NCBI GenBank assembly: GCA_963514005.1
Contig: OY740784.1
Coordinates: forward strand, 25,296,001 to 25,360,000
Direction: 5' to 3'
DNA: 64,000 nucleotides
From: Raja brachyura
Lineage: Eukaryota
Shown piece by piece: positions 12,952 to 49,438 of the stretch (the first letter of the stretch is position 1; each line of letters opens with the position of its first letter). The translations under genes and the position numbers were made by a program. The notes beneath the pieces are model-generated. The model had not been told where the DNA came from. It saw only the letters and a list, made by a program, of their open reading frames with translations, and made no database searches.

Positions 12952-13652
12952 AGAGCCTGTCCCACTGCGGCAACCTAATTTGCGAGGTTAGACGAGTGCA
13001 CTCAATTCAAACTCGCAGCATGGTCGACACATGGTCCTAGGAGGTCACTGCAATTCTCCTTCATGTTCGAGGGACGTTCCCGCCTACTCGCGGCCTCAGT
13101 TTGGTCGAGGAAAATCTTTCAGCATGCTGACAAATTTTCGGCAATTAAAAATTGGTCGGCATGGTTCTTTTGAATTCGTAGTGCAGTGGAGTGGGGTCGC
13201 TATGTAGTTATAGGCAGTCGAGGGCAGCCATATGCAATCTCATTTGCTGACCGGTCATTTTAATTGGCTCATTTAATTGGCTCATCAGAACCAAGGAAAA
13301 CTGACCGGTAATGTTAAATGCCCGCTAAACTTTATTATAAGTTGGCTGGCTTCTTAAAAGTGTCTCCATTCCTTCCCCCCCCCCCTTCTCTCCCTCTAAA
13401 GGACTTACCATAACTGTGCCAGCCGTCTTTTACCTTCCTGTTCATCGCAGGTGTGAATGTCAGACAGCGCTCCCCCGCTTTCCCTGGCCCCCGCCTTTGC
13501 AATGTGTTTGTGCGTGTGTGTGTGTGCGGTCGTTCGATCCAGCTCGCAGTTTCATCGCTGATGGACAATCCACCTCGAGGTTTTTCAGGCGAGTGCCCTC
13601 GAGCTTGAAGGTCGAAGAGTCACTGGAAAATCGCATTATTGGGACAGGCCCT
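12952..13652. mobile_element. PIF/Harbinger-type non-autonomous DNA transposon (MITE)
   Basis: TIRs AGAGCCTGTCCCACT / ATTGGGACAGGCCCT flanked by TTA on both sides (12949-12951, 13653-13655). Confidence 0.85.
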
Positions 13653-14678
13653 TTACCTTCATATAATTTCCACAAGAGTCATGGAGAGAAACCCATTTTG
13701 GCCCAGTGATTCCACATTGATAGTCAATCACCCTTTTACGGTAATCCTACATGAATCTCATTTTATTTGCTCACATTTTCATCAAACCCCCACCAACCAA
13801 GGCCAGTTTCTTACATTCGCCTACACACCTGGGCAATTTAAAAATATGCCACATTCTTGTTAAAAAGGAGAGCTAAATGAATTTAATGAAATTCTTCATT
13901 AAATTAGCAGCAGAAAATACGTTGACCACTTATTTGTTAAAATGAATCTGATTTCAAGGCTCTTCAATCATTGAAAACTGAACATTGGGATTATTAGTCT
14001 GGATTTGCCGGCTGCTTAAGGGCAAAAAACAAAGGCTTTCAGGAAGTTATCCCAAATCAAAAGTGTCAATGTCAATCGAAAGCTTCTGTGTTCTTTTAAC
14101 TGATTTAAAAAGTGACATTTACATGACTGCTCCCTTGTGGTTAAATGTCTGTAATTATACTTTACCCACTGTTAATAACCATCAACATTTAGATACTGAG
14201 ATGTATGGCAAGAATTAAATATTTTTGAAAATGAAAGCAAAAAATGTAATTTTTAATACCTGACCCAAAAACATAAAGTGGACCAGCAGGTTAAAAAAAA
14301 ACAAGTAATCGTGTGTGTCCAATTCTGTTCTGTTCTGTCAAGTTCCGTATTCTACATTGGACTCTCAAGATAGGATCACCTTTGTCAAAATACAATCTTT
14401 ATGGGGCTTTTGAATAAAGTGTGCTGCAATGTTTTAGTTCATTCCAAATATTTCAGATTCCCATGAGGATTTTGTCTGATAAGAATGAGGAAAAACGAGG
14501 GGATTAATTAAATTTCACTGATGCAAAGAGACCATTCAGGAAAATTGACATATGAGGACAAGACCAGGAATTAATTTAGTTTTATGATTAATTTCACACT
14601 ACGAGGTGAAGGCTCCCTGTGAAGGGAGCTTAGAACAAATCAGTGTGCCCTATGTCATCCGTGAATTACAAGGGTTAC

Positions 14679-14802
14679 CTGTTTCTGCTCCCTTGGTCCG
14701 TGGAGTGCATTGCTTGTGTCCTTGGCAACTTCTTAATTCCATTAGCTGTATGTGCAACTGATTAAGTACTTCCCGATCAACCATGTGTATTGTATTTGTT
14801 AG
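14679..14802 (-). CDS. SULF1: SULF1 coding exon (124 nt), ends in phase 1
   Basis: ttcag|CTA ACA AAT...ACA G|gtaacc; [41 protein letters not shown]. Confidence 0.96.
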
Positions 14803-16745
14803 CTGAAAGCAGAAAACCAAACCAGAATTCAGTTTCCCTTTTCACCAGGGGCTGCAAGAATGAGACACATTACAATATTGTCAAGAATACCATGCCAGAA
14901 CCAAGGATGGTTGTGTTTAACTTTATGAGAGCGGGGGGATCTTTATCTCGATGGACAGATATTGAACGATGGGCAGAATTTGACAGATGAGGAACAAAAT
15001 CTGTTCCATTATCGCTATAATGAGTTGCCACACGAGCAGGGGTACTTCAGGTGTGTCACAGAGCAACAACACCAATTACCTTGAGAGAAAATAATGTAGC
15101 CAAAATTTATATAAAATGCATATGAATACTCAGTAATTATTTCATTTAACTGCAGAAAACTGACATTTTAGAACCAATGATAGACACAAAATGCTGGAGT
15201 AACTCAGCAGGTGAGGCAGCATCTCTGGAGAGAAGGCATGGGTGACATTTCGGATAGCATCGGCTAGCATTAGGCATGAGGTATGAGTAACCAACCATTG
15301 CAAGAAAACTGTTTACTTGCTTTGTTTGGGATAACAACCGTAACCTATGGTTAGCAAAATAAAATGTGTTGGAACATTTGAAGTCATAATCAGGTGCTTC
15401 TAATCCTTATTATATTGTAGCCAGACACATTTATAGAAAGGGGAGTGACAATTGTCTAGTACACTGAGCAGTGAGTTTATGCCCCATTATTGTACATGCT
15501 GGAGGTGAGTGTGGCTGACCTAAGGGTTTGTTCCTGGCAGTGGTCCTTAGTTTTGAAGTGCTCTGTTCATAATGGCTCTTCTCTAAATTATTATCTCGAT
15601 GTCCATTTGCCCGATGAACTGAGTGGTCCAGCCTGCTCACGCGACAACTCGTTATAACGACAATGGAGCAGATTTTGTTTCTCATCTGTCATGTTCTGCC
15701 CATCTTTGCATTGATTGGCAAATGTACCTGCTGCCCGTTGTGCAGCACTGTGCATACAAGCACTGCATGCAAGCTGAATGGTTTAGCTTGGCTTGCAAAG
15801 TTGAGGCTCCTAATATAACCAGCCAAGGCAGCCATGTTGTTCTTCCTCACACTGGTGACATGGCGGCACTTTCCTTACGGTTTCTTAAGCTGTACACTTA
15901 GTCGGTACATGCAAAGGCTTTGGACAAAAGAGCGGTCATGCAAGTGATTGCATGAAAACACTGCTAAAAATTAGTGTTACTGCTACAGCATGAACGTTTC
16001 CCAGTGAGACTAGTATTACCTTCTTCAATAATTCCACATGGGCCACCATCCTCTGTGTCAATTTTAAAGACCCTCACATATGCACCGAGACACACATAAA
16101 AAGCAGTAATGGTTCATTAGTTAGGCAGAATACTACTACATTCAACACGTTGAAGTTCTGATGCAGACTGAAAGTTTCAATTGTCGTGATTATGTGACAT
16201 TACTGCAATGTTAGTGTGCCACATGACCAACCAGTAGAATCACAGTTTAAAAAGCACGCACATGAATGCTGCTTCCCTGGTCTTTCCCCATTTGCTCTTC
16301 CCGCTTCTCTCCAAGTGTTGCATTTACCCCTTCAAGCAGCTGCAGGTTCTATGGTTACTGCTCCACCAGGTATTTTCTGCCCTAGTCCAAAAACCTCCTA
16401 CATGCCTGAACTTTTATGGATGACAAGTGTCTCCTGCTCTTAACCATCCCTTTGGTGTCCCTTTGCGCTATCTACAACCATTGCGTGAGATGCTTAGAAC
16501 TGTGTTTAGGCACCATCAAGTTGTTGGAATATTAAATATAATTTAGGGCACGTTGATTGCCAAAATAACTGTTAGCTGAAAATGTCACCCTCCCTCATGT
16601 CTGCTCTTAAAGCAATGGAGCAATCAGGACTATAAATCTAGGTATTATAAGTAATAAACACAATCAATGGCTTCCATCAACTGCATCATCTTCTTATTAT
16701 TAATACATTTTTTAATTGTTGATAACAAAAATAAAATCTCCTTAC

Positions 16746-16888
16746 TTGATATGGATCACTGTTCATGTCGAAATATTCAAGAAAGCCGGTGGCAAATTCA
16801 CAGAATAGGATGTTGTGAGTCTCATTGATGGTCCGCAAACACCAATACGTGTTATTGTTAGAACTTGTACATGCGCAGAAAGAACCCA
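16746..16888 (-). CDS. SULF1: SULF1 coding exon (143 nt)
   Basis: tacag|TG GGT TCT...TAT CAA|gtaag; [48 protein letters not shown]. Confidence 0.97.
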
Positions 16889-17013
16889 CTGTAATGAAAG
16901 AGCACAGTTTTTGCCATGTTATTTTCTAAAGAACGCATTTTTTATGAATGCATTCCAACTGGTAAGTGTACAAAGCAAAAAATAGGGGAAATATATCGAC
17001 CCTCCACATCCTT

Positions 17014-17156
17014 GCGTGGGAAGGAACTGCTGATGCTGGTTTACGTCGAAGATAGGTACAAAATGCTGGAATAACTCAGCGGGTCAGACAGCATCTCTGG
17101 AGAGAAGGATCCGAGACCCGTCTTCAGACTGAAGAAGTTACGCCAGTATTTTGTCT
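17014..17156. mobile_element. Internally deleted Penelope-terminus fold-back insertion with TSD
   Basis: ccctccacat(c/t)ctt at 17000-17013 and 17157-17170; aaggaactgc.gatgctgg end shared with the other copies. Confidence 0.75.
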
Positions 17157-18714
17157 CCCTCCACATTCTTTCCTTTCCATTGAAGCATGTAATGGGTGCT
17201 TGATCCACTACCACTTATTTTTCTGATCCCTACAGAGTTATATATTATTTCCAGCAAGTTCAAAAAGAGAAATGTCCTGTTGTGCAAAGACATAGAATCT
17301 CACAATATGAACTATTTTGAAAATCAAAAATTAACGCGTAATTTCATTAACATGTTATTATTATTTTGGTCTTTAATCTGAATTACGATATAATGGACTG
17401 ATGAAATTAACTAACTGAACATATCTGACTCAAATGGCCATAAAGTTCAACCATAAAGGCTGAACTAAAAGATTCAAGTCTTCATGTAAAAGTTTGCAAA
17501 TCGTATTTTTGCTCATTTATAAAGGCCACAGCATTAGAAATGTGTCCTCTTTTCTATGCATATGTTGAACTCTGCTTCTGAAATTCAATTCTATTGAAAG
17601 AGATATAATTCAATTTCAGAAGAACAAGAGTGCAGAGTTCATGCCCAATGTAGCCAATCCACTCAAGGTATCTCTAGTTGCCATCTTAGGAAATCCTGAC
17701 ACTGAGGAATATCTAGACTTTATTTTACAAGTGTAACTTTTGATAACATTAACGTTGATTGTGACATTCTACCTGCACAGTAAAGAGATTGCTCTGATAT
17801 GATCTAAATAATGTTAAATCTAATTAGAGAATGTGAGTTTCATGTGCGCCTCAGCACATAATTGCCGGGTAACTTATGAAGCAGAAAGTTCCAGGTCTGA
17901 AAGGAACAGACAATGGTTGAATTTGTCATCGACTAGTCCAGGGAGTAGGAGAGCTATTGGTTCTGATCAGGTGGTGAATGTGACAATTCCCCAGTATCCA
18001 CAGAGACAAGCACCACCGCAGAGCAGATTATATTAGTTCACTGTTGTGTCTACTGGTAGCATATGATGGGAGGGAACCAGAGGAAACCAGGTAAAGATTG
18101 TAGGCCATAGATGTAGCTTACTGTGGAAAAGGAAAAGGGTGATGGGTAATTGCCAAAGTCTCAATCACTTAGGCAAAGATACAACTTTAAGATTGTCATC
18201 TTTGCTTTTGAAATCACCCCTGGCCTTTCCCTTTCTTCATAATCTCTGCTGTCCAACCCTCAAGTATCTCTCTCCTCAAGTTCTACCTCCCTCACCCCCC
18301 CCCCCCCCCCCCAGCAACCCGAACATAGCTGATATTAATTGTTTCACCTTTGAAGGCCATGGCCCAAATTGACAAGCCCTAAGCTCTAACATCCCAATCT
18401 ACAAAGGCCTCCATCTCTCTCCCATTCTCTCTAAGGAGGAGAAGTTAGAACTATCCCTTTGACTTATATTTGGTCACCTCATTTAATATCTTCTATGGTA
18501 TTGAATCAACTTTTATTATGTCTCGCAGTACTCTGCAGGAGGATTTTAATGATATTGGAATCTTTGCATTGATAAATGTTTGTTGGATTGGAACAGAGAC
18601 CTTGACAGCTTTAAGGGAAGAGTAAAGAAACATAAGGAGCATCAGATATTTGGGTAAATGGAAGAATCCAAAGTCATTTTAGAAGGATGAGAGGCGATTT
18701 TAGGATGAGAGAGG

Positions 18715-19120
18715 ATGCAGAAGGATAAGAGGGGATCTTATAGAAACATATACAATTATAAAAGGACCGGATAAGCTAGATGCAGGAAAAAAATGTTCCC
18801 AATGTTGGGGGAGTCCAGAACCAGGGGCCACATCTAAGAATAAAGGGGAGGACATTTTAAACTGAGATGCGAAATAACTTTTCACCCAGAGAGTTGTGAA
18901 TTTGTGGAATTCTCTGGCACAGAAGGCAATGGAGGCCAATTCACTGGAAGAATTTTAAAGAGTTAGATAGAGCTCTAGGGGCGATCCGAATCAAGGGGTA
19001 TGGGGAGAAGGCATGTATGGGTTACTGATTGTGGATGATCCGCCATGATCATAATGAATGGCGGTGCTGGCTCGAAGGGCCAAGTGGCCTACTCCTGCAC
19101 CTATTGTCCATTGTCTATGT
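18715..19120 (+). mobile_element. CR1 3' fragment
   Basis: ggggatcttatagaaac...ggggagtccagaacc...cctactcctgcacctattgtc, homologous to 1-400 and 38200-38589. Confidence 0.9.
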
Positions 19121-19915
19121 TATAAATGTCCCCAGTTTGGATCTTGGAACAGGGAGAGCTTTCTAATACATCACCTTGGACAGGTTTCCTATGTTTCTAT
19201 GTAATGAGACTGGATTTGGATTGCTGCAGCAAGATGTTGGCAGAGAAAAGATCAACACGGTGGTCACCTTTCTTGATATAAATTTCCTTTGCCCTCTGAG
19301 TTGAACCAAGGAAGGTTGTGCCATGCTATTACTTTATAATTCATATGAATATCGGAATATCTCTATGTATATCTGAATCTACAAAAAAGAATGAATCGGT
19401 TCACAAAACATTCTATCCCAGTACCACCAACCAACTAACATGTAATGTGTCCATTTTATGGTGAACATTGGTGTAGTATTTACTAGTGGGTACCAAATTA
19501 AGTTTGGTTTTTGCATGAGAAGCGAGATGGTGGCCAGCATTTTGGCACAAACATTGTGGGCTGTTCCGGTGCTGCACTATTCTATGGAACACCAAACTGC
19601 TGCTATGTAAAGGTAAATCGACTTACAAGCTTCATCAAAGAAACCATCTCTTTAATCACACATCGGATTGGCCATATTGTGTGGTCAGTTTGAAGTGCCA
19701 GTGATTCTCTGCCCCAGTAACTTGCAAAATGCTGTAGCCCTGATTAATATATTGTGGTGTAGTTCTAAAGCGATGTGGATGTTTTAGTCCAGAAAGCTAG
19801 TCTAATCCTGAGGCCAGTTACTGGACAACACTATAATTGCACCAGATACAGGGGAGCGGGGATGTTCTCCACCGAGCTGCTAAAGGTGTACCCTACAGAA
19901 AGAAACTCTGCTTAC

Positions 19916-20088
19916 AGTTCCAGTAGGGCGGTGTCTGCCAGTGCTCATTATTGTGTGTGAAGCAGGTGAGGCCAGGCAGGCTGCAACTATCTCCCTTCCT
20001 CATCCGCTTCTTTATTTTACGGTCTTTCTTCTTCCTCCGGTTTTCTTTGAACAGCTGGAGCTTGTTGTCCACCTCCTGAGCGACTTCC
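19916..20088 (-). CDS. SULF1: SULF1 coding exon (173 nt), basic HS-binding cluster and start of C-terminal domain
   Basis: tgcag|G GAA GTC...AAC T|gtaag; [57 protein letters not shown]. Confidence 0.97.
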
Positions 20089-20492
20089 CTGCAGAGAATG
20101 AGCGTGGGATTATGAGTGGTGTAGATATCTTGGACAACACAGTTCCAGCAGCATTCCCACCTCATCAAAATATGCAATTTTGAGCATTACACATGATCTT
20201 GGTTCTGAAACCTCTGATTTCAGGTTTTCTTTACAAATGTTCTTAAGCTATCTTTCTTGATTGGCATGATTGATGGCATCATGGAACTGCAGGCACATCA
20301 GAGGATCTGGACTCTTGAAAGCTTGGAACTATTTCTGTAGATTCCTTGTACTCCAGGCTTCATTACAAAAGCAAAATAAATTGCAGTCACGTCAGTTAAC
20401 GTTTTAGATGTGTGAGCTTCCATCAGAAGTTTGTGTTGAAAGGTCTTCACCCTGAAACATTAACTCCCTTTATCTGTTCACAAAGGTTAGCC

Positions 20493-21300
20493 CCGTGGTC
20501 ACAAGTAGAACATGCAAACTCCACTCAGGCAGCGTCCAAGGTCAGGATCGAACCCTGGTCTCTGGCACTGGGAGGCAGCAGATCCATCAGCTGTGCAACT
20601 CTCCCGCCCTTCAAAATTTCTCACATAAAACCCTTACAAATTTTGCAAAGAGAAATATCCCTGCAGAACAATGCTGGGTATGGGTAATGTGTAAGATGGG
20701 ACTGCAGTTGCTAGTTTAAACTGCAGATAGACACAAAAAGCTGGAATAACTCAGTGGGACAGGCAGCATCACTGGAGAGAAGGAATGAGTGACGTTTCGG
20801 GTCTAAAGAAGGATCTCGACCCAAAACATCACCCATTCCGTCTCTCCAGAAAAGCTGCCTGCCCCGTTGAGTTACTCCAGCCTTCTGGGTATGGGTAGGA
20901 CTGAGGAAGATTACTTTGTAGTTGCATTCACCCACTTGTGGATGACCAAATGGTGCAGCATTAAAGCTGCTTCCTCACAGCTCCAGGGACCCCATGTCCA
21001 ATCCTGATGTTGGGTGCTGTCCATGTAGAGTTTGCATGTTCTCCGTGTGACTACATGGGTTTCTACAGGTGCTCAAAGACATGCAGGTTAGCTAAATGGC
21101 TACTGTGAATTGCTGCAGAGCGGTGATAAGTGGCAAAGGGGAAATGATGTGCATGTGAGAATAGTTTAGTGCTACAAAGAAATAAGTAGAAGGGATGACT
21201 CTTGCGAAACACAAAGTGCTGGAGGAACTCAGTGGGCCAGGCAGCATCTGTGTGGGGAATGGGCAGGCAAGGTTTTGGATTGGGACTGCTCTTCTGTGAA
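20493..21300. mobile_element. Cluster: partial SINE (-, about 20493-20610), Penelope-terminus fold-back with degraded hammerhead (about 20712-20885), decayed SINE (+, about 20948-21120), further terminus fragment (about 21200-21300)
   Basis: Similarity to the better-preserved copies elsewhere in the window. Confidence 0.7.
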
Positions 21301-21639
21301 GAAGTGGTATGGACTTGACGGGCTGAATGGCATTAGAAGGGGACAAAAATAAACTTAACATTACTTGTTGTTGGCAAAATAAAATGGTTTCATTCACTTG
21401 TCAAGGGCACTGCTTTAATAGAAGCTCCAAGAGGGAACAACAATAATATAATTTGATTTAAATTATTTTTTGAACAATTACCCCTCGTTTGAGAAAATTT
21501 GACTTGTTTACTAATGTGAATAACTGATAACCAGCAGAGCACGAGGGCACTTGCCACCAGTCAGTGAGACTGCGACCAGTCCTGTACCTCGAGTCCACAA
21601 TCTCTGCTCAGGCTAGGCCTGCCACAGAGACCCACCTAC

Positions 21640-21714
21640 CTGAAGGGGTGGAGATGGCTGTTCTTGTTCTTCAGTTTCCCTTGATTTCTCATTCCTTTAT
21701 CTCTATTAAAATAA
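21640..21714 (-). CDS. SULF1: SULF1 coding exon (75 nt)
   Basis: tgtag|T TAT TTT...TTC AG|gtaggt; SYFNRDKGMRNQGKLKNKNSHLHPFR. Confidence 0.94.
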
Positions 21715-22429
21715 CTACAGATAACAGAAATAAAGGAGAGTTGTTATGTATAGGAATAAGATTAAAATTCTCATGGTGAGTTCAGCAAACAAGTATTTCC
21801 AGGAGAATGGAGGAAAGACACATAGATTCAGCAGCCTTTTAATCTGCCCATATTTTGCTCAAAACTACTGAGCTGAAATGTGGGGAGAATGTCTGTGGCT
21901 TCAGCATCACAGGCTGTGTGCTTCAGGCCAGACTGCTTCTTCCACCTACGGTGGTCCTGGGCACTGCCAGATGATCAGGCATGCTCAGTGCACAGCAGAA
22001 CCTGTGGTACTGGCTGTTCACCCCGACAGCAGGTGGAGCCTTGCCCCAGGAGTTACCAGCTGGCAAACCTGTTGCTGAAAGAAAATTACTGTACATTTCT
22101 ATTGACATTCACAGTGGTCAAGTGCATCTGGGAGCTATGAGCAAAAGTAAAGTTAAGAACAAAATATCATTTTAAACTAAAACGACTGAACTCCAAGTAC
22201 TAAAAAGCAATGATGTACATTTAAACTAATATTGTTACAACAAAGAGAGATGTCTGCTTGCTACTCCCCGAGTGGTCATTTCTCCCGATGATTTTCAGTG
22301 CAGTGGCGATATTTGAGCCAAGTTTAACCTGATGCCAGGTCAGCTGGCAAGAGGAAGAGATTTAACTTTTTTTTGCCTTCCATCACAGTGAGGAATGTGG
22401 AGGAGTCTCTGTGCTGTATGTTTATGTTA

Positions 22430-22972
22430 AAATATAACCATATAACAATTATATAACATTATATAAAATATAACCATATAACCATATAACCATATAACAA
22501 TTATAACAGCACGGAAACAGGCCTTCTTGGCCCTTCCAGTCCGTGCCGACCATTTATTTCCCCTTAGTCCCATCTACCTGCACTCAGACCATACCCCTCC
22601 ATTCCCTTCCATATACCTATCCACTTTACTTTTAAATGTTAAAATCGATCCTGCCTCCACCACTTCTGCTGGAAGATCATTCCACACAGCCACCACTCTC
22701 TGAGTAAAGAAGTTCCCCCTCATGTTACCCCTAAACTTCTGTCCCTAAATTCTCATGTCATGCCCTCTTGTTTGAACCTTCCCTACCCTCAATGGGAAAA
22801 GCTTATCCATGTCAACTCTGTCTATCCCTTTCATCATTTTAAAGACCTCAATCAAGTCCCCCCTTAACCTTCTGCGCTCCAAAGAATAAAGACCTAACTT
22901 GTTCAACCTTTCTCTGTAACTTAGTTGCTGGAACCCAGGCAACATTCTAGTAAATCTCCTCTGTACCCTCTC
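22430..22972 (-). mobile_element. CR1 3' fragment with (TTATATGG)n tail
   Basis: ORF 22745..22945 SYRERLNKLGLYSLERRRLRGDLIEVFK; (ccatataa)n repeats at 22430-22505. Confidence 0.9.
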
Positions 22973-22979
22973 TTGGCCC

Positions 22980-23997
22980 TTGTTGTGAGTGGGGGAATGG
23001 GGAGAGAGGGGAGCGTTTCCCCCTGGTCCTCACCTTTCACCCCACCAGCCAGCGCATACAACAAATAGTCCTCCACCAGTTTCGCCACCTCCAACGTGAC
23101 CCCTCCACTCGCCACATCTTCCCATCTTCCCCCATCTGCCTTCCGCAAAGACCGCTCCCTCCGCAACTCCCTTGTCAATTCTTCCCTTCCCTCCCGCTCC
23201 ACCCCTTCCCCGGGCACTTTCCCTTGCAACCGCAAGAGATGCTACACTTGTCCCTTCACCTCCCCCATCCACTCCTTTCAGGGACCCAAGCAGTCATTCC
23301 AAGTCCGACAGAGGTTCACCTGCACCTCCTCCAACCTCATCTACTGCATGTGTTGCTCCAGATGCCAGCTGATCTACATCGGTGAGACCAAGCGGAGGCT
23401 GGGCGATCATTTCGCCGAACACCTCCGCTCGGTCCGCAATAACCAACCCGACCTCCCGGTGGCTCAGCACTTCAACTCCCCCTCCCATTCAGTATCCGAC
23501 CTCTCGGTCCTGGGCCTCCTCCACGGCCAAAGTGAGCAACACCGCAAGTTGGAGGAACAGCACCTCATATTCCGCTTGGGGAGTCTGCATCCTCTGGGCT
23601 TAAACATTGAATTTTCTCAATTCTGTTAACCCAAACTGCCCCCTCCCCCTCCCCACCTCTCCCTCAGCACTCGGGCCCTGACATTCCTTCTCCATCTCCC
23701 CCCCCCCCCCCCCCACACCCAAGTCGCACTAGCTTCTCATTTTCACACTACAAACAGCTTACAATGGCCTCTTTCCTTTATCATCAATACTTTTTTGCAT
23801 ATCTTTCATTCATTGTTCTTTATCTCTCCATATCACTGTCTATATCTCTCGTTTCCCTGATCCCTGCCCAGTCTGAAGAAGGGTCTCGACCCGAAACGTT
23901 GCCTATCTCCTTCGCTCCTTAGATGCTGCTGCACCCGCTGAGTTTCTCCAGCTTTTTGTGTAACCCTCGATTCTCCAGCATCTGCAGTTCCTTCTTT
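22980..23997 (+). mobile_element. Penelope-like retroelement, 5'-truncated: GIY-YIG endonuclease end plus 3' terminus with hammerhead motif
   Basis: ORF 23096..23629 has CxxxxCxxC, NLIYCMCCSRCQLIYIGETKRRL (GIY-YIG), HLRSV, VAQHFN and PLGLN, the PLE endonuclease signature. Confidence 0.92.
23869..23904 (+). ncRNA. Minimal type-I hammerhead ribozyme motif in the PLE terminus
   Basis: CTGAAGA (23873-23879), a, GGGTC tc GACCC, GAAA (23893-23896), cgtt. Confidence 0.7.
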
Positions 23998-24105
23998 AAC
24001 AAATTGCAATACCATCCAAGACCCACAGAGGGACCCGATTTCCATCTGCAACTGGGATTAATTTGGCCCAGCAAGTTAGTCATTCATCTTTTTTTCCCTG
24101 CTTTT

Positions 24106-24406
24106 GTTTTAGTTTAAGATATACGGCACAAAAACAGGCCCTTTGGCTCACCGAGTCCGCACCGACTAGGGATCCCCGCACACTAACACTACCCTACACA
24201 CACTAGGGACAATTTAACATTTACACCAAGCCAATTAACCTGCAAACCTGTACGTCTTTGGAGTGTGGGAGGAGACCTCGGAGAAAACCCACGCAGGTTA
24301 TGGGGAGTACGTACAAACTCCGTGCAGACAGACCCGTAGTCAGGATCGAACCCTGGTCTCTGGCGCTGTGAGGCAGTAGCTTTACTGCTGCGCCACTGTG
24401 TCGCCC
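24106..24406 (-). mobile_element. HE1/V-SINE-like element, near full length
   Basis: A-box tggcgcagcagta and B-box gggttcgatcc on minus strand; 3' end shared with CR1 UTR (ggcctgttt). Confidence 0.9.
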
Positions 24407-24439
24407 AGCTATCTAGCAGTTTGCAGGAATTTAGTTTAC

Positions 24440-24960
24440 AAAAGATGCTGAAGATATCGTGTTAAAAACAGAGAAGGTGAAGAGAAACTCACAGGTCAGG
24501 CTGCATCTACAGAGGGAAAGAGAGGGAAAGAAATGTTTCAGGTCGTTGACCTGTAACATTAACATAGAGACATAGAAGAACTGCAGACGCTGGAGTTTTT
24601 ATAACTGACACCCTATTTTCCTTTTCTTCCCAAGTTTTTGCCCACCCATCTGCCAATCACACTCCCTCGCCTGCATGCATCTATCACCCACGATAGACAC
24701 AACATTCTGGAGTAATTCAGCAGATCAGTCCCTGACCCGCTGAGTTACTCCTGCATTTTGTGTCTAACTTTGGTATAAACCAACATCTGCAGTTCCTTCC
24801 TAGCCATCTATTACTTGCCTGGCCTTGTCCCACACCCACTTTCTCCCCACTTCTACTACAATCAGCGTGAAGAAGGGACCCAACCTGAAATGTTGCCTAT
24901 CCATGTCCTCCAAAGATGCTGCAAAACCTACTGAGTTACTCCAGTACTTTGAGTTTTGAC
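24440..24960. mobile_element. Several decayed, nested Penelope-terminus fragments
   Basis: Repeated gctgagttactcc.gca / catctgcagttcctt motifs in both orientations. Confidence 0.65.
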
Positions 24961-25058
24961 TTGTAACAATGGTTTTGTCCCAGTCTATTTTGAGACGGGA
25001 CGATAAAGTTTGATGTCACCAGTTACCATATGGCTTCCTCAGTCTTAACATATGAATG

Positions 25059-25084
25059 GTGTGTGTGTGTGTGTGTGTGTGTGT
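25059..25084. repeat. (GT)n microsatellite
   Basis: Direct reading. Confidence 0.95.
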
Positions 25085-25156
25085 GGTGACAGTGAGGGTA
25101 GTGGGGACGGGGGATAGAAAGTCACCCTCAAATTGAGAAGTATTGGTGGCACAGAC

Positions 25157-25251
25157 CTTTTCCTGTTGCAGTCACATTCCTCCGGCTTTTTTCTTTTCAG
25201 GTGACCTCTCACTTCCCTCAGATTCTTTATTTTATCCTGAAGAGCTTCAAT
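25157..25251 (-). CDS. SULF1: SULF1 coding exon (95 nt), coiled-coil part of hydrophilic domain
   Basis: tgtag|ATT GAA GCT...AAA AG|gtctgt; [31 protein letters not shown]. Confidence 0.96.
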
Positions 25252-25896
25252 CTACAACGCAGGGGGAAAAGAACAGAAGTTTCTTTCTCGCTTCAAAAAT
25301 CACCAAAACATCTTTATTCCATGAATTTTGGTGGGGGAGCATAATTCTTGGGTCGACGGTGCCTTTGATGCCTGATTTTGCCGATGACAGTCACTGGCCT
25401 CCACCCATTGTTATTACATTCGCATCAACGCCTGCAGAAGCAATGGTGCCTCTGCACTCACTTGGGAAGGTTACTAGCCAGGTGCCATTTCAAGCGCGTT
25501 GTCCACAGCTCGAATTTCCAGCATGAATATTGGAATGTTATGACAGGAAGTTTCAGATCCACCCCTCTTACCACCCCTGCCTGCCAAAAAATGTAACTTT
25601 ATCTTTTAGTAAGAATGCCTTCCAAAAAATGGCTGGAGTTATGTCCTTTGAGGAAGTCCATCAGCAACCAACTGGGTCGATTAAGGTTAGTTTTACAAAG
25701 TGTAAATTTCTGGCTTGTGGTGCTGAATGGAGATATCCATCAATTGATTTCCTGCCAGCGTTATTCAGTCATTCATTAGCAATCCCATAGCAAAAAATAT
25801 ATATCATTCCAACCTTCCCAGTGGAAATAATCGCCTATCATTGATAAAGTCTGCAGCTCGCCGACTCAAAAATTGTCTGCCATAACGTTATCTAAC

Positions 25897-25993
25897 CTCT
25901 TTGTCTATGTAACTCTTGTGGTCCTTCCATGCTCTAGCTGACTGATACAGCTCCTTCTCACAATGCACTGTTTCATTGGCAAGAATGTAACAC
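25897..25993 (-). CDS. SULF1: SULF1 coding exon (97 nt)
   Basis: tgaag|G TGT TAC...AAA GAG|gttag; [32 protein letters not shown]. Confidence 0.96.
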
Positions 25994-26197
25994 CTTCAGG
26001 AAAGAAATAAGTAAAGAAAATAAAAGCCCACATCAATGATACTGCAAAATCCAAAGAATTTTACAAATTACTTACAGAAACAAACACACTCAGGGTTTTT
26101 AACAAATTACTCCAGTGCTTTCCCTCTGGAAGACCTTTGCCTAGAAATTGAAAGGCACCGGCTGAGGCATATTCAACAACAGCTAAATATTCAATAA

Positions 26198-26293
26198 CAG
26201 TCTGAAGAAGGGTTTCGGCCCGAAACGTCGCCTATCTCCTTCGCTCCTTAGATGCTGCTGCACCCGCTGAGTTTCTCCAGCCTTTTGTGTACC
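26198..26293 (+). mobile_element. Short Penelope-terminus insertion with intact hammerhead motif (GUC triplet) and 13-bp TSD
   Basis: CTGAAGA 26202-26208, GGGT ttcg GCCC, GAAA 26222-26225, CGTC; ttcaacaacagct at 26172-26184 and 26294-26306. Confidence 0.8.
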
Positions 26294-26319
26294 TTCAACA
26301 ACAGCTGACAGCCCAGGGT

Positions 26320-26800
26320 GCATGGGTATATGGGGTGCATGGCAGAGAGGCCAAGGAGATTGAAGGGAGAGTCTGGGGTCTATGGGAGAGACTGGGGGTT
26401 CATGGCAGAGTGACACAGAGTGCGTGGAATGTGGGGGCGTGAGTTTATGGATGAGAGACCAGGGGTTGATGTGTGGGGGTTCATGGGAGAGAAGCTCTGG
26501 GTGGGTGGAGTTTGAGTCAGGGAGTTCATGGGAGAGGCGATCAGTAGTTCATAGGTGAGACACACAGGAATTCATAGGAGAGAGATATGAGAGAGAGGGA
26601 GAGGGACACACATTTCATGGGAGAGAGAGACACACACATTAGTTTATTGGGGAGAGAGAGAGCAGGAGTTCATGGGAGAGAGGACCAGTAGATTAATGGG
26701 AGAGAGACACAGGAGTTGATGGGAGACAGACATGACTGTTCATGGGGGAGAGACACACAGGAGTTGATGGGTAGAGGCTCAGAGGTTTCATGATAAAGAG
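26320..26800. repeat. Degenerate purine-rich minisatellite, unit about 25-30 bp (ggagttcatgggagagagacacaca-like)
   Basis: Recurrent gttcatggga / gtttatgg / gttgatggg units. Confidence 0.75.
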
Positions 26801-27443
26801 GCCCCAGGTGGTGGAGTATGTGTCAGTGATAGGTACAAGAGGAGTGGCCAGGCAGTGATTAGAAGATTAGAATGGGGGATATGGCTGGGAGGTTATTGAT
26901 GTGAGGGGAAGTGGGAGGTTGGCTGAGTGGTAGATTGGAAGTTGGGTGTGGGTGGCAGAGAGTTTGACCTGATATGTGGGCACAGGAGGAGGAGGTGAGC
27001 CTGACAAGAGAGGTGGGTACATGGGTCACCTGAAGATGATCCACACGTCAGGTTCCCAATACTGTACACCTCAGGCTGTGGGACTGCTGAGGCTGGTCAA
27101 CTTTGAGTAACACCAAGGCAGGCAGGCGTTGTGACGAGTTGCATGAGTGGAACAGCGCGGTGTGCCTGCAGAAACCCTGGCAGAGGCATCAGATGTGGAC
27201 AGATTTCACTGCACGTGTCTGTGCTCCTTCGTGTGTTGTTGTATCCGACACACACACAGAACTCAACAGGAAACCCCAGATCGTTATATAGCTCACGATA
27301 AATTCCTCCAGCGCCTTTACTGTTGTTATTTCATGAAAAATGAATTGTGTCGTGTATAAAAATGTGTTTCCTGTGATTCAATTTCTAGGCATAGCTCTTT
27401 AAAGTTCTAGCATATGACAGCTCGGGGTATAAGGCAAACTTAC

Positions 27444-27684
27444 TTGTGAGTGACTTTGACTGAATCCAGCACTGATTCACCAGCTTTACTGCCGTCCTCG
27501 CCAATCATGACACTTTCCACCGCCTCGCCAGCGGCCGCGTCCTCTTGGTAAGAGCCCATGGTGATATTTTGCGGTATGAGTGGCTCTGGGTCTGCGATTT
27601 CCAGGTCAATGTCATAGATCTCACCTTCCAGCTCGACTGAAACAGAGCGGATGGGCCGAGTGCGGAGGAAGCGGTGCTTAAATT
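27444..27684 (-). CDS. SULF1: SULF1 coding exon (241 nt), furin-site region of hydrophilic domain
   Basis: aacag|AA TTT AAG...CAC AA|gtaagt; FKHRFLRTRPIRSVSVELEGEIYDIDLE...SVKVTHK; not in the supplied ORF track. Confidence 0.95.
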
Positions 27685-28067
27685 CTGTTTAAGGGAAAAC
27701 TCACTTTAAGGCAGTTGTCCGCCATGCATGCGTGTCGCAATAGAACTGTGTAAACTGGGAAACTCTCAATGTGAATCAAACTTTTCATGTTGCATGAATT
27801 TGGCAATGGCTGCCTGCCCTCCATACAAAGGTCTTCGCCATCCACTTGGTGCACTGTTAGTGAAGTGAAACTAACCGAAAACTAATTATTAGAAAATAAT
27901 AAGAACAGGCCAGTGCAGAACTATTACTGTTCGCATCCTTGTATCCCTTTGCCCTCACCTTTTCCCAGCCAACATTGTGTTATTATGGGATCCACCATTC
28001 CTTGGTCACCCATTTTTGGGGCCTGCTTTGTTCTGGCCTTTTCCCTCCAGTTCTCTTCCCTCTACTT

Positions 28068-28200
28068 TCAGTCTGAAGAAGGGTCCCGACCCAAAACGTC
28101 ACCTATTCTTTTTCTCCACAGAGGCTGCCTGAGCTGCTGAGTTACTCCAGCACATTGTGTCCATCTTTGGTACAAAGCAGCATCTGCAGTTCCTTTCTAC
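28068..28200 (+). mobile_element. Penelope-terminus fragment, hammerhead with GAAA>AAAA change
   Basis: gtCTGAAGAagggtcccgacccAAAACGTCacc...catctgcagttcctt. Confidence 0.8.
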
Positions 28201-28989
28201 ACATACACGCTATCACCCTGTTCCCTGCTGTTGGGAAAACCAGGCCTACCACATTGCCACCACACCTTTAGATTGAAACTCCCTGGTTCTTTCAAGGGAT
28301 GACATCAGCTTGTGCTGGTCACAAACATCTACACAGACACTGCTACCTATCAGCTGGCTCAAATCATACGGCTGCTCTTGTCCAGGGATTCTTGGCAGAA
28401 GTAACATAATGGCTTAGACTAAATTTACCCCAGTGGCTCTCCATTGGCAAACCGGAGGCCTGTAACCGTTAATCAAGTTTATATCAACGTTGGAAATGAG
28501 CCTCACGCAATGTGGACCAGGCCTTTGTGCCGTGACCAGGGCCAAACTCTAATCAGTCCTGTGGCTGCAAACGTCACCCTGTAGCATAATGCCTGGTCAC
28601 TTGCACCTAAAGTCTTGGGTGCAAGTCAAGTTTTCAGAGAAGGTCATTAACCTAGGGGATTTGTTCCAGCAATCGGCCCACAATAGCTGCCATAATGTGC
28701 AGGATTTTCTTATCGGAAGATGGGCGAATAGGCAAAGGAGCCTGCTTGCCTTATTTCCCCATTGGCCTCTTTGCAGTTCAGCAGGGAGCTCTGGTGCTTC
28801 CCTCACAGTTCAGTGGGCCAGTGGACAGTCCTTGCAATCACACAACACTGCCGGTCTGATGTGGAGCACTGCTGGACTGTTGATGGAGAGAAGCCCAATT
28901 GGAAGCTTTGGAAGTTCGCTCATCCACTGACAAATACAATTCTAGTCAATATGCCACATGAGCGATAATGACTGATTATTTTGTCTTGC

Positions 28990-29145
28990 TTCACGAGCAG
29001 GTCGAGCAGTATCTCTGGAGAACATGGATAAGTGACATTTCGGGTTGGGACCCTTCTTCAAATTGAAGGGAACTGACCTGAAACGTCACCTATCCATGTT
29101 CTCCAGTGATGCTGCTTGACCCACTGAGTTACTCCAGCACTCGGT
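28990..29145. mobile_element. Penelope-terminus fold-back, degraded cores
   Basis: ctggagaacatggataagtgac...gtcacctatccatgttctccag inverted arms. Confidence 0.75.
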
Positions 29146-29532
29146 CTCCTATTTAGCTCCGGGTCACTTGGAGCAACAGTTAAACCCTCACAAAAGTCTA
29201 CTTCGTATGTGCTGCCAAAAACAGTAACAGAAAAGTTTCATTGTGATTTGAAATGGAGCAAGAATGCTTTGCTCGGTGAATGCGACTCAGAATTTGCCTC
29301 TTTGGAGTTGCAGGGCATGTTGGCAAGGATCTGCATGACCAGTTTATCTGTCATTTTCTCTCCAGCATGTGGAATCTGCAGTGAAAGTTGGCACTGATTA
29401 GCCTGGAACTGCCCCACCAGGAGATGGTGCCCAGGAGCAGTCTGCAATAAGCTAATGGACTTGACTCAGTATGCAACAGTTGAGCTTGGCTTGAGTTTGC
29501 AGAAGATCTGACTCTTATAATGTTTCCAGCAT

Positions 29533-29548
29533 GCCACTAGATGGCAGC
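29533..29548 (+). promoter_or_regulatory. Candidate CTCF binding site
   Basis: GCCACTAGATGGCAGC matches the CCASYAGRKGGCRS core; weaker same-orientation match at 29417-29430. Confidence 0.55.
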
Positions 29549-29610
29549 AAAGGTCCATGCTCAGGATGCTGCTGCCTCTAACCCAAGGTCACAGATCGCT
29601 GCATACTCAC

Positions 29611-29821
29611 TGTGGGTAGTGTGGATGTTGAGGAATTGTCTCTGGTTCCTTCTCTCTGATTGACGCATCCTGTAGCTATTGCTCGAGCAATCACAGTGAT
29701 TACTGGCATAGGCCTGACCACGCAAACTTTTACTTTTCTTGCTGCCAGCGTGCACTTTGGTTGTGCCTTTGCATTTGTGGAGCCGCAGTCTTCCTGCAGA
29801 ATCTTCAACGCATTGCCATTT
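29611..29821 (-). CDS. SULF1: SULF1 coding exon (211 nt), hydrophilic domain
   Basis: atcag|AAA TGG CAA...CAC A|gtgagt; KWQCVEDSAGRLRLHKCKGTTKVHAGSKKSKSLRGQAYASNHCDCSSNSYRMRQSERRNQRQFLNIHTTH. Confidence 0.95.
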
Positions 29822-29944
29822 CTGATTATAAATAGCAAAAAGTTACAAACCCCACTTATCACACAGAACTAACATTCCATATTGGACAACAAAATTAAAA
29901 ATGCTCCTTTAGACACGCAGATAACTAAACCAAAACCAAAACCA

Positions 29945-30231
29945 GTGTGGAAATAGGCCCTTTAGCCCACCGTCGCCATCGCCATTTAGTACCATCGCCA
30001 ACACCAGAGCAACCCTAATCACTAGGGACAATTTACAATGTTACCAAAGCAAATTAACCTACAAACCTGCATGTCTTTGTAATGTGGGTGGAAACTGGAG
30101 CACGCGGAGAAAACCCACGTGGGCACAGGGAGAACGTGCAAACTCTGTACAGACAGCACCTGTAGTCAGGATGGAACCCGGTTCTCTGGCGCTGTAAGGC
30201 AGCAACTCCCCCGCTGCACCACTGTGCCACC
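29945..30231 (-). mobile_element. HE1/V-SINE-like element
   Basis: Homologous to 24106-24406. Confidence 0.85.
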
Positions 30232-30616
30232 CTAAATATACTCTCCTCTTAATATACAGCATATGATTTTAAAACTAATTAGTGTGCAACGACAGAGTTT
30301 GCATTCTATAGCATCTTTAATAATTGCAAGACATCTTAAAGCTGCTTCTAGCTGCAGACATATTATTTAAAAATGGCTCCAGAATGATACTGTGAGATAT
30401 CAGTACACTAATGTTTACCTCATTGGTTCATTTAAAATATGGAGTTTAATATCACTGAATAGCCAAGGGATTTTGACAAGATGCTAAATACCTGAACAGA
30501 GTGGTGTAACTTTGACACTGAATACTCCGGGATCATGTAAAACATTGGTTTCGTTGGAAAGAATGTGCGGAATAGTGCAGATTTGCCTGAATCCTATTCA
30601 TTTAGTCTATGTGTGT

Positions 30617-30765
30617 GAAGGAACTGCAGATGCTGGTTTAAACCAAAGATAGACACAAAATGCTGGAGTAACTCAGGCAGCATCTCTGGAAAGAATGAAT
30701 GGGTGACTTTTCGGGTCGAGACCCTTCTTCATACTGAGTTTCTCCAGCATTTTGTGTCTATCTTT
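30617..30765. mobile_element. Penelope-terminus fold-back, internally deleted
   Basis: gaaggaactgcagatgctgg...gatagacacaaaatgctggag / ctccagcattttgtgtctatc inverted arms. Confidence 0.8.
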
Positions 30766-32156
30766 TAGTTCATGTAGTCCATTCCATTCTTGACCTTCTT
30801 CACGATCACTGTAGTACAGATAAACGGTAGTATCTCAGAAAGCTATCTTATAGAATCAGCTGTTGTGGATATCAAAACATTGCTAGAGTCATGGGCGCAT
30901 TCAGCGCAAAAACCTGTCCTTCGGCTCAATTTGTCCATGCCGACCAAGACACCACATCTAGTCCAGTCCCACTTGTCCACATTTGGTCCACACCTCTCTA
31001 AACCTTTCCTATCCATGCACCTGTCCAAATGTGTTTTTGAGTAGGACAATACGACACACAGGTGTGGCGTGTATTTTGCAGCAAGACTGATTGGCAAAAA
31101 GTAAGTGAAACACAACTCAGCACACTCCAATTTAGATGTTGTCATCTGTTTGAAAACAAAGTACAATTTATTCCTTCCATTGGAAACCGAATGCGTTTTT
31201 AATTGGATGCCTTTTTCTGCACCTGGCTCTCACATCACAGCAGGCGATCTCATTTCATTCAACAGACATCAAACACAGGGAATATTGGAGAGGTGGGAAG
31301 TATATCTGTTTACTATGATATAAGGAATAGGGTTTACCATCGACAATCGGTTCCATTGCTTTCCACAGAACTGCCATCTGAGTGATGGGTCTGTGTCAGT
31401 AATGTTTTGCTTTTGAATTTGGGAGCCACGTCAATGAGAGAAGCCTATTAGGCAAGTGAAAACATGTTCTCGAAGTGTATTCACTTTTGCAGAGTCGGAC
31501 TTCATGATCTGAGGAATAATCAGCTGTTCATGTCCCAAATGCCTGGAGGTACCCACAAAATAAACCTTCATAAACCTTAATAAACATACACCTTTCATGT
31601 TTCATGTTTCTTGCTGTGCTTCCCTCCTCGGATAAATAAAGTTCTACCGTATCGTATCACAATATCTTGCAAATCTGCTTTTTAAATTTTCTCAACACCT
31701 GAGAAAATTACACTGAGATCTCTCTCTCTGAGGATTCACTGCTTTATCAGCCATTTAAAACACGATTCCAAAATTATACATGAATCAAGGATATTACACT
31801 TCAGAGAGCCTGAGGTTTTCTTTCCCAAGGCTATTTATTTATTCTCATGTTCGTTAACTTTTGATGTGTGTTACACTCCAGTCTTCAACCAAGTGAACCA
31901 CCTCTGCCTGTACATAATTGATGGGAATGCTCTGTGAATAACTGAAGTGGACTGCAGGAGTCACACCTGGATCTCCCTGGCAGATCCTACTTTTGCCTGC
32001 CCCTCAGCCACACATCAGCAAATTTGTGTCTTGGTGAACCATAACTGTATTTCATTTGATATGGAATTTCATTGTCCCATCCGGGACATATGACAATAAA
32101 ACACTCTTGACTTGACTCTTGACTTGATTAATATTTTGCAATAACATTCAGGAAAG

Positions 32157-32640
32157 ATGGCACAGTGGCGCAGCGGTAGAGTTGCTGCATTAAGGGCCTG
32201 TCCCACTTGGGCGACTCTTTAGGCGACTGCCAGGAACTAGTTTTGATGGAATTTACCTACGACACCTTGCGACAACCTATGACAGCAAATATTGTCGCCA
32301 CTCTCGGCGAAAATATTCCAACATGTTGAAAATTTTGCGGCAGTCGCCTGTAGTCCCCCAGAAAAAATTGCCAAACCCGGGTTCAATCCCGTCTATGGAT
32401 GTTGTCTATATGGAGTTTGTATGTCCTCCCCGTGACCTGCGTGGGTTTTCTCCGGGATCTTCTGTTTCCTCCCACATTCGAAAGACGTTCAGGTATGTAG
32501 GTTAATTGACTTGGTGTATGTATAAATTGTCCCTAGTGTGTGTAAGATAGTGCTAATGGGCAGGGATTGCTGGTCAGCATGGACTCGGTGGTCCGAAAGG
32601 CCTGTTTCCGCGCTGTATCTCTGAACTAAACTGAACTAAA
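32157..32640 (+). mobile_element. HE1/V-SINE-like element interrupted by a partial Harbinger MITE (32193 to about 32374)
   Basis: SINE head ggcacagtggcgcagcggtagagttgctg, then TTA+AGGGCCTGTCCCACT, resuming at cccgggttcaatcc. Confidence 0.88.
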
Positions 32641-49371: not shown

Positions 49372-49438
49372 TAAATGAGAGAAAGAGAGAGAGAAAAGAG
49401 AGAGGAAGAGAAAAAGAAAGCTAGAAAAATAGAAACGA

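What the first reader, a model, noticed from the sequence alone, without database searches (positions are those of the whole stretch)
22980..23997. Penelope element terminus carries a hammerhead ribozyme and is the source of about 15 dispersed intronic pieces
Seen: about 240 nt after the GIY-YIG ORF stop lies CTGAAGA-a-GGGTCtcGACCC-GAAA-CGTT. The same 100-130-nt terminus recurs near 10.6, 15.2, 17.0, 20.7, 21.2, 24.5-24.9, 26.2, 28.1, 29.0, 30.6, 35.5, 35.8, 40.7, 46.0, 59.0 and 61.5 kb. Stem II sequence varies while pairing is kept (GGGTttcgACCC, GGGTttcgGCCC, GGGTCtcGACCC), and stem III is the self-complementary ACGT. Established: PLEs encode minimal type-I hammerheads with palindromic stem III that are thought to work as dimers. 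Inference: at about one piece per 4 kb this would be a very abundant ribozyme-bearing repeat genome-wide, usually masked as an anonymous SINE-like repeat.
Basis: partly seen in the sequence, partly recalled or inferred. Interest (0 to 1): 0.7.

Follow-up and report, generated by a model that had tools for sequence, protein, structure and literature searches.

The report
Skate Penelope ends carry uncut hammerheads
This is a broken copy of a known kind of jumping gene (a Penelope-like element) in a skate gene's intron, carrying the small hammerhead-ribozyme motif such elements normally have; the many short look-alikes around it are separate, mostly older insertions that likely copy the capped, uncut front end of the element's RNA rather than working ribozymes.

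Summary
The motif and all 16 listed places are real, intronic in SULF1 of a skate. 22975-24001 is a 5'-truncated copy of a young Neptune-type Penelope-like element (PLE) whose intact relatives encode RT plus GIY-YIG. Hammerheads in PLE ends are known since 2014. The motif is a true hammerhead lineage: distant relatives carry it at the same place with covarying stems. But the skate version has a 2-bp stem I, fails the published descriptor, and folds poorly. Only 4 of 24 window pieces keep core plus stem II, all antisense to SULF1; the stem II 'variation' is loop, wobble or CpG decay. This copy is not the source: most pieces are older subfamilies and separate insertions with target duplications. 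Abundance is extreme (54,853 exact 28-mers; about 1 million pieces extrapolated). 56 of 102 young copies start at the motif's 5' edge, 1 at the cut site, with an extra G (55% against 28-34%), which likely marks uncut, capped RNA. This scan found the same on other skate and shark DNA before.

The parts
22975..23017 (-). 43-nt inverted segment at the 5' junction of the truncated element (coding sequence just upstream of 23018, flipped)
   Evidence: Matches the reverse strand directly before the main match in 39 of 40 top genomic places, the 40th being the window itself; sequences compared
23018..24001 (+). 5'-truncated body of a young Neptune-type Penelope-like retrotransposon
   Evidence: 95-97% identical to the 39 other top-scored copies; longer copies run upstream into RT
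23069..23629 (+). Open frame (186 codons): linker C-X4-C-X2-C, GIY-YIG endonuclease with two inner cysteines and downstream histidines
   Evidence: Pfam GIY-YIG E 0.0098, below curated cut-off; motifs
23870..23870 (+). Inferred main transcription start (A of CAGT, 3 nt before core C3); short copies pile up at -4..+2
   Evidence: Inference
23871..23902 (+). Minimal hammerhead motif: stem I 23871-72 with 23901-02 (2 bp), core CTGAAGA 23873-79, extra A, stem II 23881-84 with 23889-92, GAAA 23893-96, ACGT 23896-99, predicted cut after 23900
23921..23983 (+). Predicted 8-bp long stem AGATGCTG (23921-28) with CAGCATCT (23976-83) enclosing a hairpin; invariant across subfamilies; candidate protein-binding / RT-start structure
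   Evidence: function inferred
23967..24001 (+). Optional 35-nt PLE 'tail' (copies end near +94 or near +129 from C3)
   Evidence: Two-peaked 3' ends; tail described in PMC8557442 and PMC11167929
26198..26291 (+). Short copy close to the young subfamily (96%), starts 4 nt before the core, no tail, 13-nt flanking duplication; core and stem II intact, stem I 2 bp
10559..10791 (.). Head-to-head pair of a sister subfamily (87%), tail on the left arm only, 22-nt flanking duplication; its 4-bp 'stem I' is a product of the fold-back junction
45972..46055 (+). Older short copy; core kept, stem II reduced to 3 bp
15168..21296 (.). Older decayed pieces at 15168-15257(-), 17019-17132(-), 20689-20805(-)/20798-20891(+), 21197-21296(-)
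24443..30738 (.). Older decayed pieces at 24443-24552(-), 24733-24802(+), 24863-24954(+), 28068-28202(+), 28996-29070(-)/29064-29178(+), 30613-30738(-)
35504..61688 (.). Older decayed pieces at 35504-35552(+), 35819-35937(-), 40705-40789(+), 59034-59156(-)/59197-59269(+), 61530-61602(-)/61605-61688(+)
2574..58111 (-). Host gene SULF1 (13 exon matches in the window; first exons beyond the window end); the element lies antisense in the intron between 20090 and 25150

Best explanation
22975-24001 is a dead, 5'-truncated copy of a young Neptune-type Penelope-like retrotransposon whose terminal repeat carries a hammerhead-derived motif with a 2-bp stem I, and the short pieces are separate insertions from several successive subfamilies that likely arise when reverse transcription starts inside the RNA and runs off its capped, uncut 5' end. 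Shown: element class, motif in both terminal repeats, independent insertion of short copies, two fixed 3' ends (about +94 and +129 from core C3), a 5' pile-up at -7..+2, a G excess at that junction, no pile-up at the cut site (+28). Inferred: transcription starts at about -3; the element protein binds near the start of the RNA and primes at +94 or +129 (as shown in vitro for the Anolis element PAc); most cDNAs end at the cap and insert as 95-135-nt units; two such cDNAs made on the two nicked strands give the head-to-head pairs; long copies need a tandem read-through RNA, a template jump or a circle. The ribozyme would cut rarely, and if at all with protein help in the source elements; inserted copies decay neutrally.
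For: Class: 1203-codon open frame with RT and GIY-YIG in L047, motif in both repeats of L050. Insertions: duplication of 9 nt or more in 21 of 49 non-inverted short copies against 3 of 245 mismatched controls. Ends: 56 of 102 young copies start at -7..+2 (one is an internal deletion; 15 are flagged head-to-head junctions), 1 at +27..+29, 7 at -8..-94, 23 further upstream. Genome-wide, 8,618 exact copies keep 13 more upstream bases against 32,660 from +2. Base before AGTCTGAAGA: G 2,039, A 1,075, T 627, i.e. 55% G against 28% (composition) or 34% (before AGT in random DNA). Two loci show duplication, one extra G, then the element (L282, L303). Exactly one arm has the tail in 20 of 23 head-to-head pairs, both arms in 0. 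Weak ribozyme: stem I of 2 bp or less in 48 of 55 motifs in 740 kb; hammerhead dimer 13 kcal/mol above the best fold against 5.5-7.4 in three relatives. PMC11167929: internal RT start, ribozyme mutants do not affect insertion, cleavage only with protein.
Against: No raw RNA reads were available: the runs found are contigs, which cannot show starts or cuts. The G excess could come from untemplated G-rich additions at any RT stop (runs such as GAGGGG occur), and it was absent at boundary 0 (0 of 5). The positions for the G test were picked after seeing the sample; only -3 was then tested genome-wide. Cut products might insert poorly, so a lack of +28 ends does not show a lack of cutting. The core is invariant across six subfamily groups but for two CpG sites (2 of 25 columns vary against 38 of 98) and non-CpG core bases are slightly better kept than downstream blocks (7.9% against 9.5%, p 0.016), so some constraint persists. 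D. virilis has a 2-bp helix I and cleaved weakly when helix III was lengthened (PMC4209133). 85 of the 102 copies come from the first 2.9 Mb of one contig.
Confidence: 0.68

Rival explanations
1. The motif is an active dimer- or protein-assisted ribozyme in the source elements: it cuts tandem transcripts and lets them circularise, which yields the long copies and regenerates the terminal repeats, while short copies come from the uncut fraction.
For: Core, extra A, G10.1-C11.1 and ACGT kept across six subfamily groups and across relatives at 44-61% protein identity; about 30 of 102 copies run through the start region into the 3' UTR; protein-assisted cleavage in PAc (PMC11167929); circle model in PMC4209133. 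Compatible with most of the best explanation.
Against: Stem I 2 bp; stem II pairing probability 0.05 or less for 23873, 26202 and L046 in three contexts; in the start-to-tail RNA the core is predicted to pair with the tail; no pile-up of ends at +28.
Confidence: 0.3
2. The pile-up at the motif's 5' edge is a reverse-transcriptase stall or template-switch site (structure, or the near-palindrome CAG-N-CTG), not an RNA end.
For: 15 of the 56 boundaries are flagged head-to-head junctions, many joined at the CAGTCTG/CAGACTG microhomology; the 5' core is predicted to pair with the tail end.
Against: The other boundaries join unrelated flanks with target duplications; G excess of 55%; the main G-preceded starts, A(-3) and G(+2), follow a pyrimidine as RNA polymerase II starts do (own knowledge).
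Confidence: 0.15
3. The short units are a self-propagating non-autonomous family (SINE-like or retrozyme-like) with their own masters, rather than by-products of full-length elements.
For: Defined unit of 95-135 nt that holds the inferred start and, with the tail, the inferred RT-start structure; far more short than long copies; PLE promoters are internal (PMC2377424); retrozymes are reported to derive from pLTRs (10.64898/2026.07.22.740005).
Against: Short and long young copies share one sequence; each junction differs; a candidate core-dead variant (558 exact copies) had unrelated upstream contexts in most of 30 loci read, so it is no separate master (three loci share one flank); no tandem arrays of units among the window pieces. 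Young and older groups have ORF-linked copies.
Confidence: 0.1
4. One reading: this copy seeded the pieces and they form an abundant set of working intronic ribozymes.
For: About 197,000 motifs with core, stem II and NNUH extrapolated from 54 in 740 kb; the 4 intact window motifs are all antisense to SULF1, 0 of 11 sense pieces intact (715/10626 = 0.067 by hand), which purging of active sense copies would give.
Against: Most pieces are 66-80% identical and belong to older groups; 20 of 24 broken; G12 lost at the CpG rate (94 of 282, against 24-33% at three other CpG G's); solo copies lack a dimer partner; antisense copies cannot cut the SULF1 pre-mRNA.
Confidence: 0.05

Closest known systems
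[quoted passage not shown]
   Same: CUGANGA, extra base before stem II, G10.1-C11.1, GAAA-NN-UH with palindromic CG, place in both pLTRs, mostly solo copies (about 4,000 in coelacanth, 9,000 in Xenopus).
   Different: Stem I 2 bp (descriptor needs 3 or more; D. virilis variant also has 2), stem II 4 bp rather than 7-8; 54,853 exact copies of one 28-mer; no cartilaginous fish named in the parts read or searched.
Neptune-clade EN+ Penelope-like elements (Craig et al. 2021, PMC8557442, passages; Arkhipova et al. 2013, PMC3846280, passages)
   Same: Single ORF, RT then GIY-YIG, DKG, CX2-5CxxC linker, inner cysteines, partial tandems, inverted 5'-truncated copy, 30-40-bp tail on one end, target duplications.
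   Different: Very long proline-rich N-terminal region (1203-codon frame); short solo units dominate; no tree against named clades was built.
PAc, Poseidon element of Anolis carolinensis (Frangieh et al. 2024, PMC11167929; main text read to Methods)
   Same: Two RT start sites that bound the tail; both strands extended; unprocessed RNA is the template.
   Different: Different clade; there the ORF starts within the ribozyme, here the first ATG lies about 160 nt after the core; PAc stem I supports protein-assisted cleavage, untested here.
Non-LTR retrozymes (bioRxiv 10.64898/2026.07.22.740005; part 1, Discussion and passages read; supplements closed)
   Same: Hammerhead-bearing pLTR-derived short sequences; one chondrichthyan genome included.
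   Different: Retrozymes are head-to-tail tandem arrays with canonical activity criteria; these pieces are solo or head-to-head with target duplications.

Membership tests
EN+ Penelope-like element | Single ORF with RT and C-terminal GIY-YIG endonuclease | tested here: met
   L047 1203-codon frame: RVT_1 E 2e-4, GIY-YIG E 1.6e-3, both under curated cut-offs; YIDD and DKG; 906 homologues. The window copy holds only the EN end.
EN+ Penelope-like element | Partial-tandem pLTRs, inverted copies, optional 30-40-bp tail | tested here: met
   L047, L049, L050; 3' ends at two peaks; 20 of 23 head-to-head pairs with one tail
Neptune (or Nematis) clade | CX2-5CxxC linker before GIY-YIG and CCHH motif | tested here: met
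   CNRKRCYTC; LIYCIRCSRCQLIYIG with downstream histidines; definitions from PMC8557442
Neptune (or Nematis) clade | RT phylogeny with named clade members | not tested
   Homologues returned were almost all unnamed; Neptune rather than Nematis rests on own knowledge of host range
min-HHR (Cervera 2014) | CUGANGA ... GAAANNUH core, extra nucleotide, G10.1-C11.1, palindromic 15.2-16.2 | tested here: met
   23873-23900; G-C in 14 of 14 aligned rows
min-HHR (Cervera 2014) | Helix II of 3-7 bp | tested here: met
   4 bp; but predicted pairing probability 0.05 or less at 23873
min-HHR (Cervera 2014) | Helix I of at least 3 bp | tested here: not met
   2 bp at 23873, 26202, 45975; 48 of 55 random motifs have 2 bp or less; relatives have 3-5 bp in 19 of 23
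min-HHR (Cervera 2014) | Covariation of stems | tested here: inconclusive
   Strong across distant families (35 two-sided cells, 0 of 500 shuffles, slid controls 21-48% paired against 87.5%); within the skate family only U-A/U-G at stem I and scattered singletons
min-HHR (Cervera 2014) | Self-cleavage as dimer or with protein | not testable with these tools
   Only folding energies and genomic ends
Non-LTR retrozyme | Head-to-tail tandem units, each with an intact type I hammerhead | tested here: not met
   Window pieces are solo or head-to-head; a few partial tandem junctions elsewhere
Dfam/Repbase annotated repeat | Match to a library consensus | not testable with these tools
   No such library; Rfam gave no hammerhead family at E up to 5

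The most novel reading that the evidence does not exclude
Skate genomes hold about a million 'strong-stop-like' cDNA insertions that record, base by base, a Penelope replication cycle: priming at two internal sites, run-off at a capped start 3 nt before the hammerhead, and paired two-strand priming; the hammerhead has lost its stem I because it now sits at the very start of the RNA and is kept as promoter or protein-binding sequence, or as a protein-gated switch, instead of as a free ribozyme.
Probability: 0.35. Interest if true: 0.62.

Novelty: new member of a known kind. Interest (0 to 1): 0.38.

Why it matters
That PLE ends carry hammerheads is known. What these data add is scale (far above the 4,000-9,000 motifs reported for coelacanth and Xenopus, and largely invisible to the published descriptor because stem I is 2 bp) and a genomic read-out on an open question: what the PLE hammerhead does and how PLEs copy themselves. 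Tens of thousands of young copies suggest that the inserted template was capped and uncut, in line with the one in vitro study. The family has copies with an unbroken 1203-codon frame, so the question can be taken to the bench. I found no paper stating this for cartilaginous fish (searches; subscription journals and Repbase/Dfam not covered).

Tried and rejected
Rfam scan: no hammerhead family; miRNA-family hits at 10.6, 20.8 and 29 kb are below gathering scores and reflect the fold-back pairs. Stem II covariation inside the genome: commonest alternatives are G-T, A-C and T-G, i.e. CpG decay or wobble. A separate core-dead master beginning AGGAAGA: rejected, contexts mostly unrelated. Target duplication around 22975-24001: none found within 120 nt upstream. 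RNA evidence: 24 runs, all contigs, 3 on record as RNA; 4 laid; no starts, ends or expression can be read; loose ends near the motif's 5' edge begin with C on the + strand in X1 and X2, in line with an extra G but at low agreement and possibly DNA, so not counted. 5' starts over all subfamilies are blurred by differing upstream sequence; only the young set was used for the claim, though +26..+30 holds just 5 of 338. A first long-stem count was one column out of register and was redone. Paper search for 'strong-stop' with Penelope gave one unrelated listing. PMC6155905 mentions 'shark' only for the ribozyme's name.

Full report
Observation. The motif stands at 23873-23900 (+), 243 nt after the stop of frame 23069-23629. 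nhmmer with the terminus gives 24 pieces at E<0.01 including the query, at all 16 places listed, and none in one reversed and four shuffled windows. The frame at 2571-3584 is the last exon of SULF1, best hit 98% to the protein of the skate Amblyraja radiata; 13 exon matches run from 58111 to 2574 on the minus strand, the first exons lie beyond the window, and no piece overlaps an exon.

The element. The 40 best genomic places include the window and 39 copies at 95-97%. Window bases 22975-23017 are a flipped piece of the coding sequence that precedes 23018 in other copies. Longer copies extend into a reverse transcriptase. L047 holds a partial 5' repeat, a 1203-codon open frame and a 3' repeat; L050 has the motif in both repeats. 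The frame has DKG, YIDD, a C-X4-C-X2-C linker and a GIY-YIG domain with inner cysteines, the marks of Neptune/Nematis elements in PMC8557442 (passages). No tree was built.

Abundance. One 28-nt pattern has 54,853 exact matches, reversed control 0; a 36-nt pattern of the young subfamily has 55,173. In 74 stretches of 10 kb taken at round positions on the 22 first contigs, 294 pieces were found, one per 2.5 kb, reversed control 0. Extrapolated: about 1.07 million pieces and 197,000 with core, stem II and NNUH. Cervera and De la Pena report about 4,000 and 9,000 in coelacanth and Xenopus (PMC4209133).

Is it a hammerhead? Using the published descriptor but recording stem I length, the window has 4 motifs, all on +, antisense to SULF1; stem I is 2 bp in three, and 4 bp only at 10690 where the fold-back junction supplies it. 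In 740 kb, 55 motifs (0-2 in four controls), 7 with stem I of 3 bp or more, none of these from an intact native context. Relatives at 39-61% protein identity from metagenome contigs (80 loci) carry 23 motifs in 274 kb (1 per shuffle), 96-152 nt after the ORF match in 12 of 28 loci with enough flank, stem I of 3-5 bp in 19 of 23. An alignment of 3 skate and 11 of these motifs, picked by me as distinct, gives 87.5% paired cells, 35 two-sided changes, 0 of 500 shuffles, slid controls 21-48%; relatedness inflates such counts. So the motif descends from a real minimal hammerhead, but the skate form fails the helix I test. Folding agrees: the hammerhead is not the best fold, stem II probability is 0.05 or less for 23873, 26202 and L046, and the hammerhead dimer lies 13 kcal/mol above the best dimer fold against 5.5-7.4 for three relatives. 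A 2-bp helix I is known from D. virilis.

Conservation. 210 of 364 aligned pieces that span the motif were grouped on non-ribozyme columns. Over six groups the ribozyme columns vary at 2 of 25 (both CpG) against 38 of 98 elsewhere (p 0.003; with nine groups 6 of 25 against 51 of 98, p 0.014). Within the genome stem II shows wobble and CpG decay, not compensation; stem I alternates U-A and U-G. Among copies, G12, the general base (PMC6155905, passage), is changed in 94 of 282, like other CpG G's (24-33%); non-CpG core bases differ in 7.9% against 9.5% in invariant downstream blocks (p 0.016, open to alignment-edge and composition bias). Reading: constraint in source elements, neutral decay after insertion. 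The constraint may be promoter or protein binding as much as catalysis: the D. virilis promoter is internal and holds an RGACGTGY element (PMC2377424, passages), and ACGT here lies 27-30 nt after the inferred start, an imperfect match.

Origin of the short pieces. This copy is not their source: only 26198-26291 is close (96%), 10.6 kb is 87%, the rest 66-80%, in groups 9-21% diverged from their own majority against 4% for the young group. Older endonuclease remnants have their own versions of the terminus. For 102 young copies (85 from the first 2.9 Mb of C1, 17 from random stretches), 3' ends fall near +94 or +129 from core C3, the known optional tail. 5' ends: 56 at -7..+2, 13 at +3..+27, 1 at the predicted cut, 30 upstream of -7, 2 beyond +29; one of the 56 is an internal deletion, one +26 row is a locus edge, one +41 row an indel artefact. 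Flanking duplications of 9 nt or more occur in 21 of 49 non-inverted copies against 3 of 245 controls; in the window, 22 nt around the 10.6-kb pair and 13 nt around 26198. In the sample 15 of 20 boundaries at -3, -2 and +2 were preceded by G (positions chosen after looking). The genome-wide test at -3 gave G 2,039, A 1,075, T 627, 55% against 28-34% expected. An extra G at full-length L1 insertions is attributed to copying of the cap (PMC4038843, passages citing Gilbert 2005). 20 of 23 head-to-head pairs have the tail on one arm only.

Mechanism. Shown are the ends, duplications and G excess. Inferred, by analogy with PAc (PMC11167929: internal priming at two sites, both strands extended, ribozyme mutants insert normally, cleavage only with protein): transcription starts about 3 nt before the core, which leaves only AGU for stem I; the protein primes at +94 or +129 and runs off the capped end; most products insert as short units, singly or as two-strand pairs; about 30% continue upstream through a tandem RNA, a jump or a circle. 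Cut RNA was rarely the inserted template. Self-priming on an antisense template has been proposed for head-to-head pairs (PMC3846280, passage) and is not excluded. No RNA reads could test this.

Prior notes. My reading was in the notebook before I looked at the scan's notes; eight earlier notes on skate and shark DNA, two on this genome, reach the same verdict, one with the capped, uncut reading. They are not independent support. The one-tail rule and the paper PMC3846280 came to me from those notes.

Verdict. Real feature, known kind. Interest 0.38: ordinary as a PLE hammerhead, lifted by the scale, the reduced stem I set against covarying relatives, and a testable genomic trace of how PLEs copy themselves. 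Supplements not seen (file 1 of PMC4209133; those of the 2026 preprint, which includes one chondrichthyan) may already list this family.

Noticed in passing
window 2571-3584 (-): SULF1 ends in a roughly 300-codon last exon (residues 822-1120 of P0001), found in sharks, birds, reptiles and some mammalian isoforms at 31-98% identity.
   Followed up: partly
window 42-1070 (-), 37424-38437 (+), 52969-53409 (-): 3' ends of a CR1-like LINE (RVT_1 hits for the first two; clade name from own knowledge).
   Followed up: no
window 22440-22974: Repeat with an (ATAACCAT)n-like end, probably a LINE 3' end on the minus strand, directly abutting the PLE's inverted 5' segment; no target duplication found.
   Followed up: no
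window 53958-54065 (+): Old PLE coding remnant (71% to 23020-23126), without its terminus.
   Followed up: no
L047:4680-4700: A splice-donor-like AG/GTATG overlaps the first ATG of the long frame; D. virilis Penelope has a 5' intron. No joint was seen among those shown.
   Followed up: no
L046:8527-8660: In the start-to-tail RNA the first 12 bases are predicted to pair with the tail's end, bringing the inferred RT start next to the 5' end and hiding the ribozyme core (z -1.7).
   Followed up: partly
L132, L289, L292, L298; L188, L192: Sets of loci share the same junction and, in most, the same flank, so some short copies were multiplied inside a larger duplicated or mobile unit.
   Followed up: no
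L288, L290, L297, L301: Short terminus joined directly to internal ORF sequence, two through an A-run, suggesting template jumps or polyadenylated truncated RNAs.
   Followed up: no
window, all pieces: All 4 core-intact motifs are antisense to SULF1 although 11 of 24 pieces are sense (p about 0.07).
   Followed up: partly
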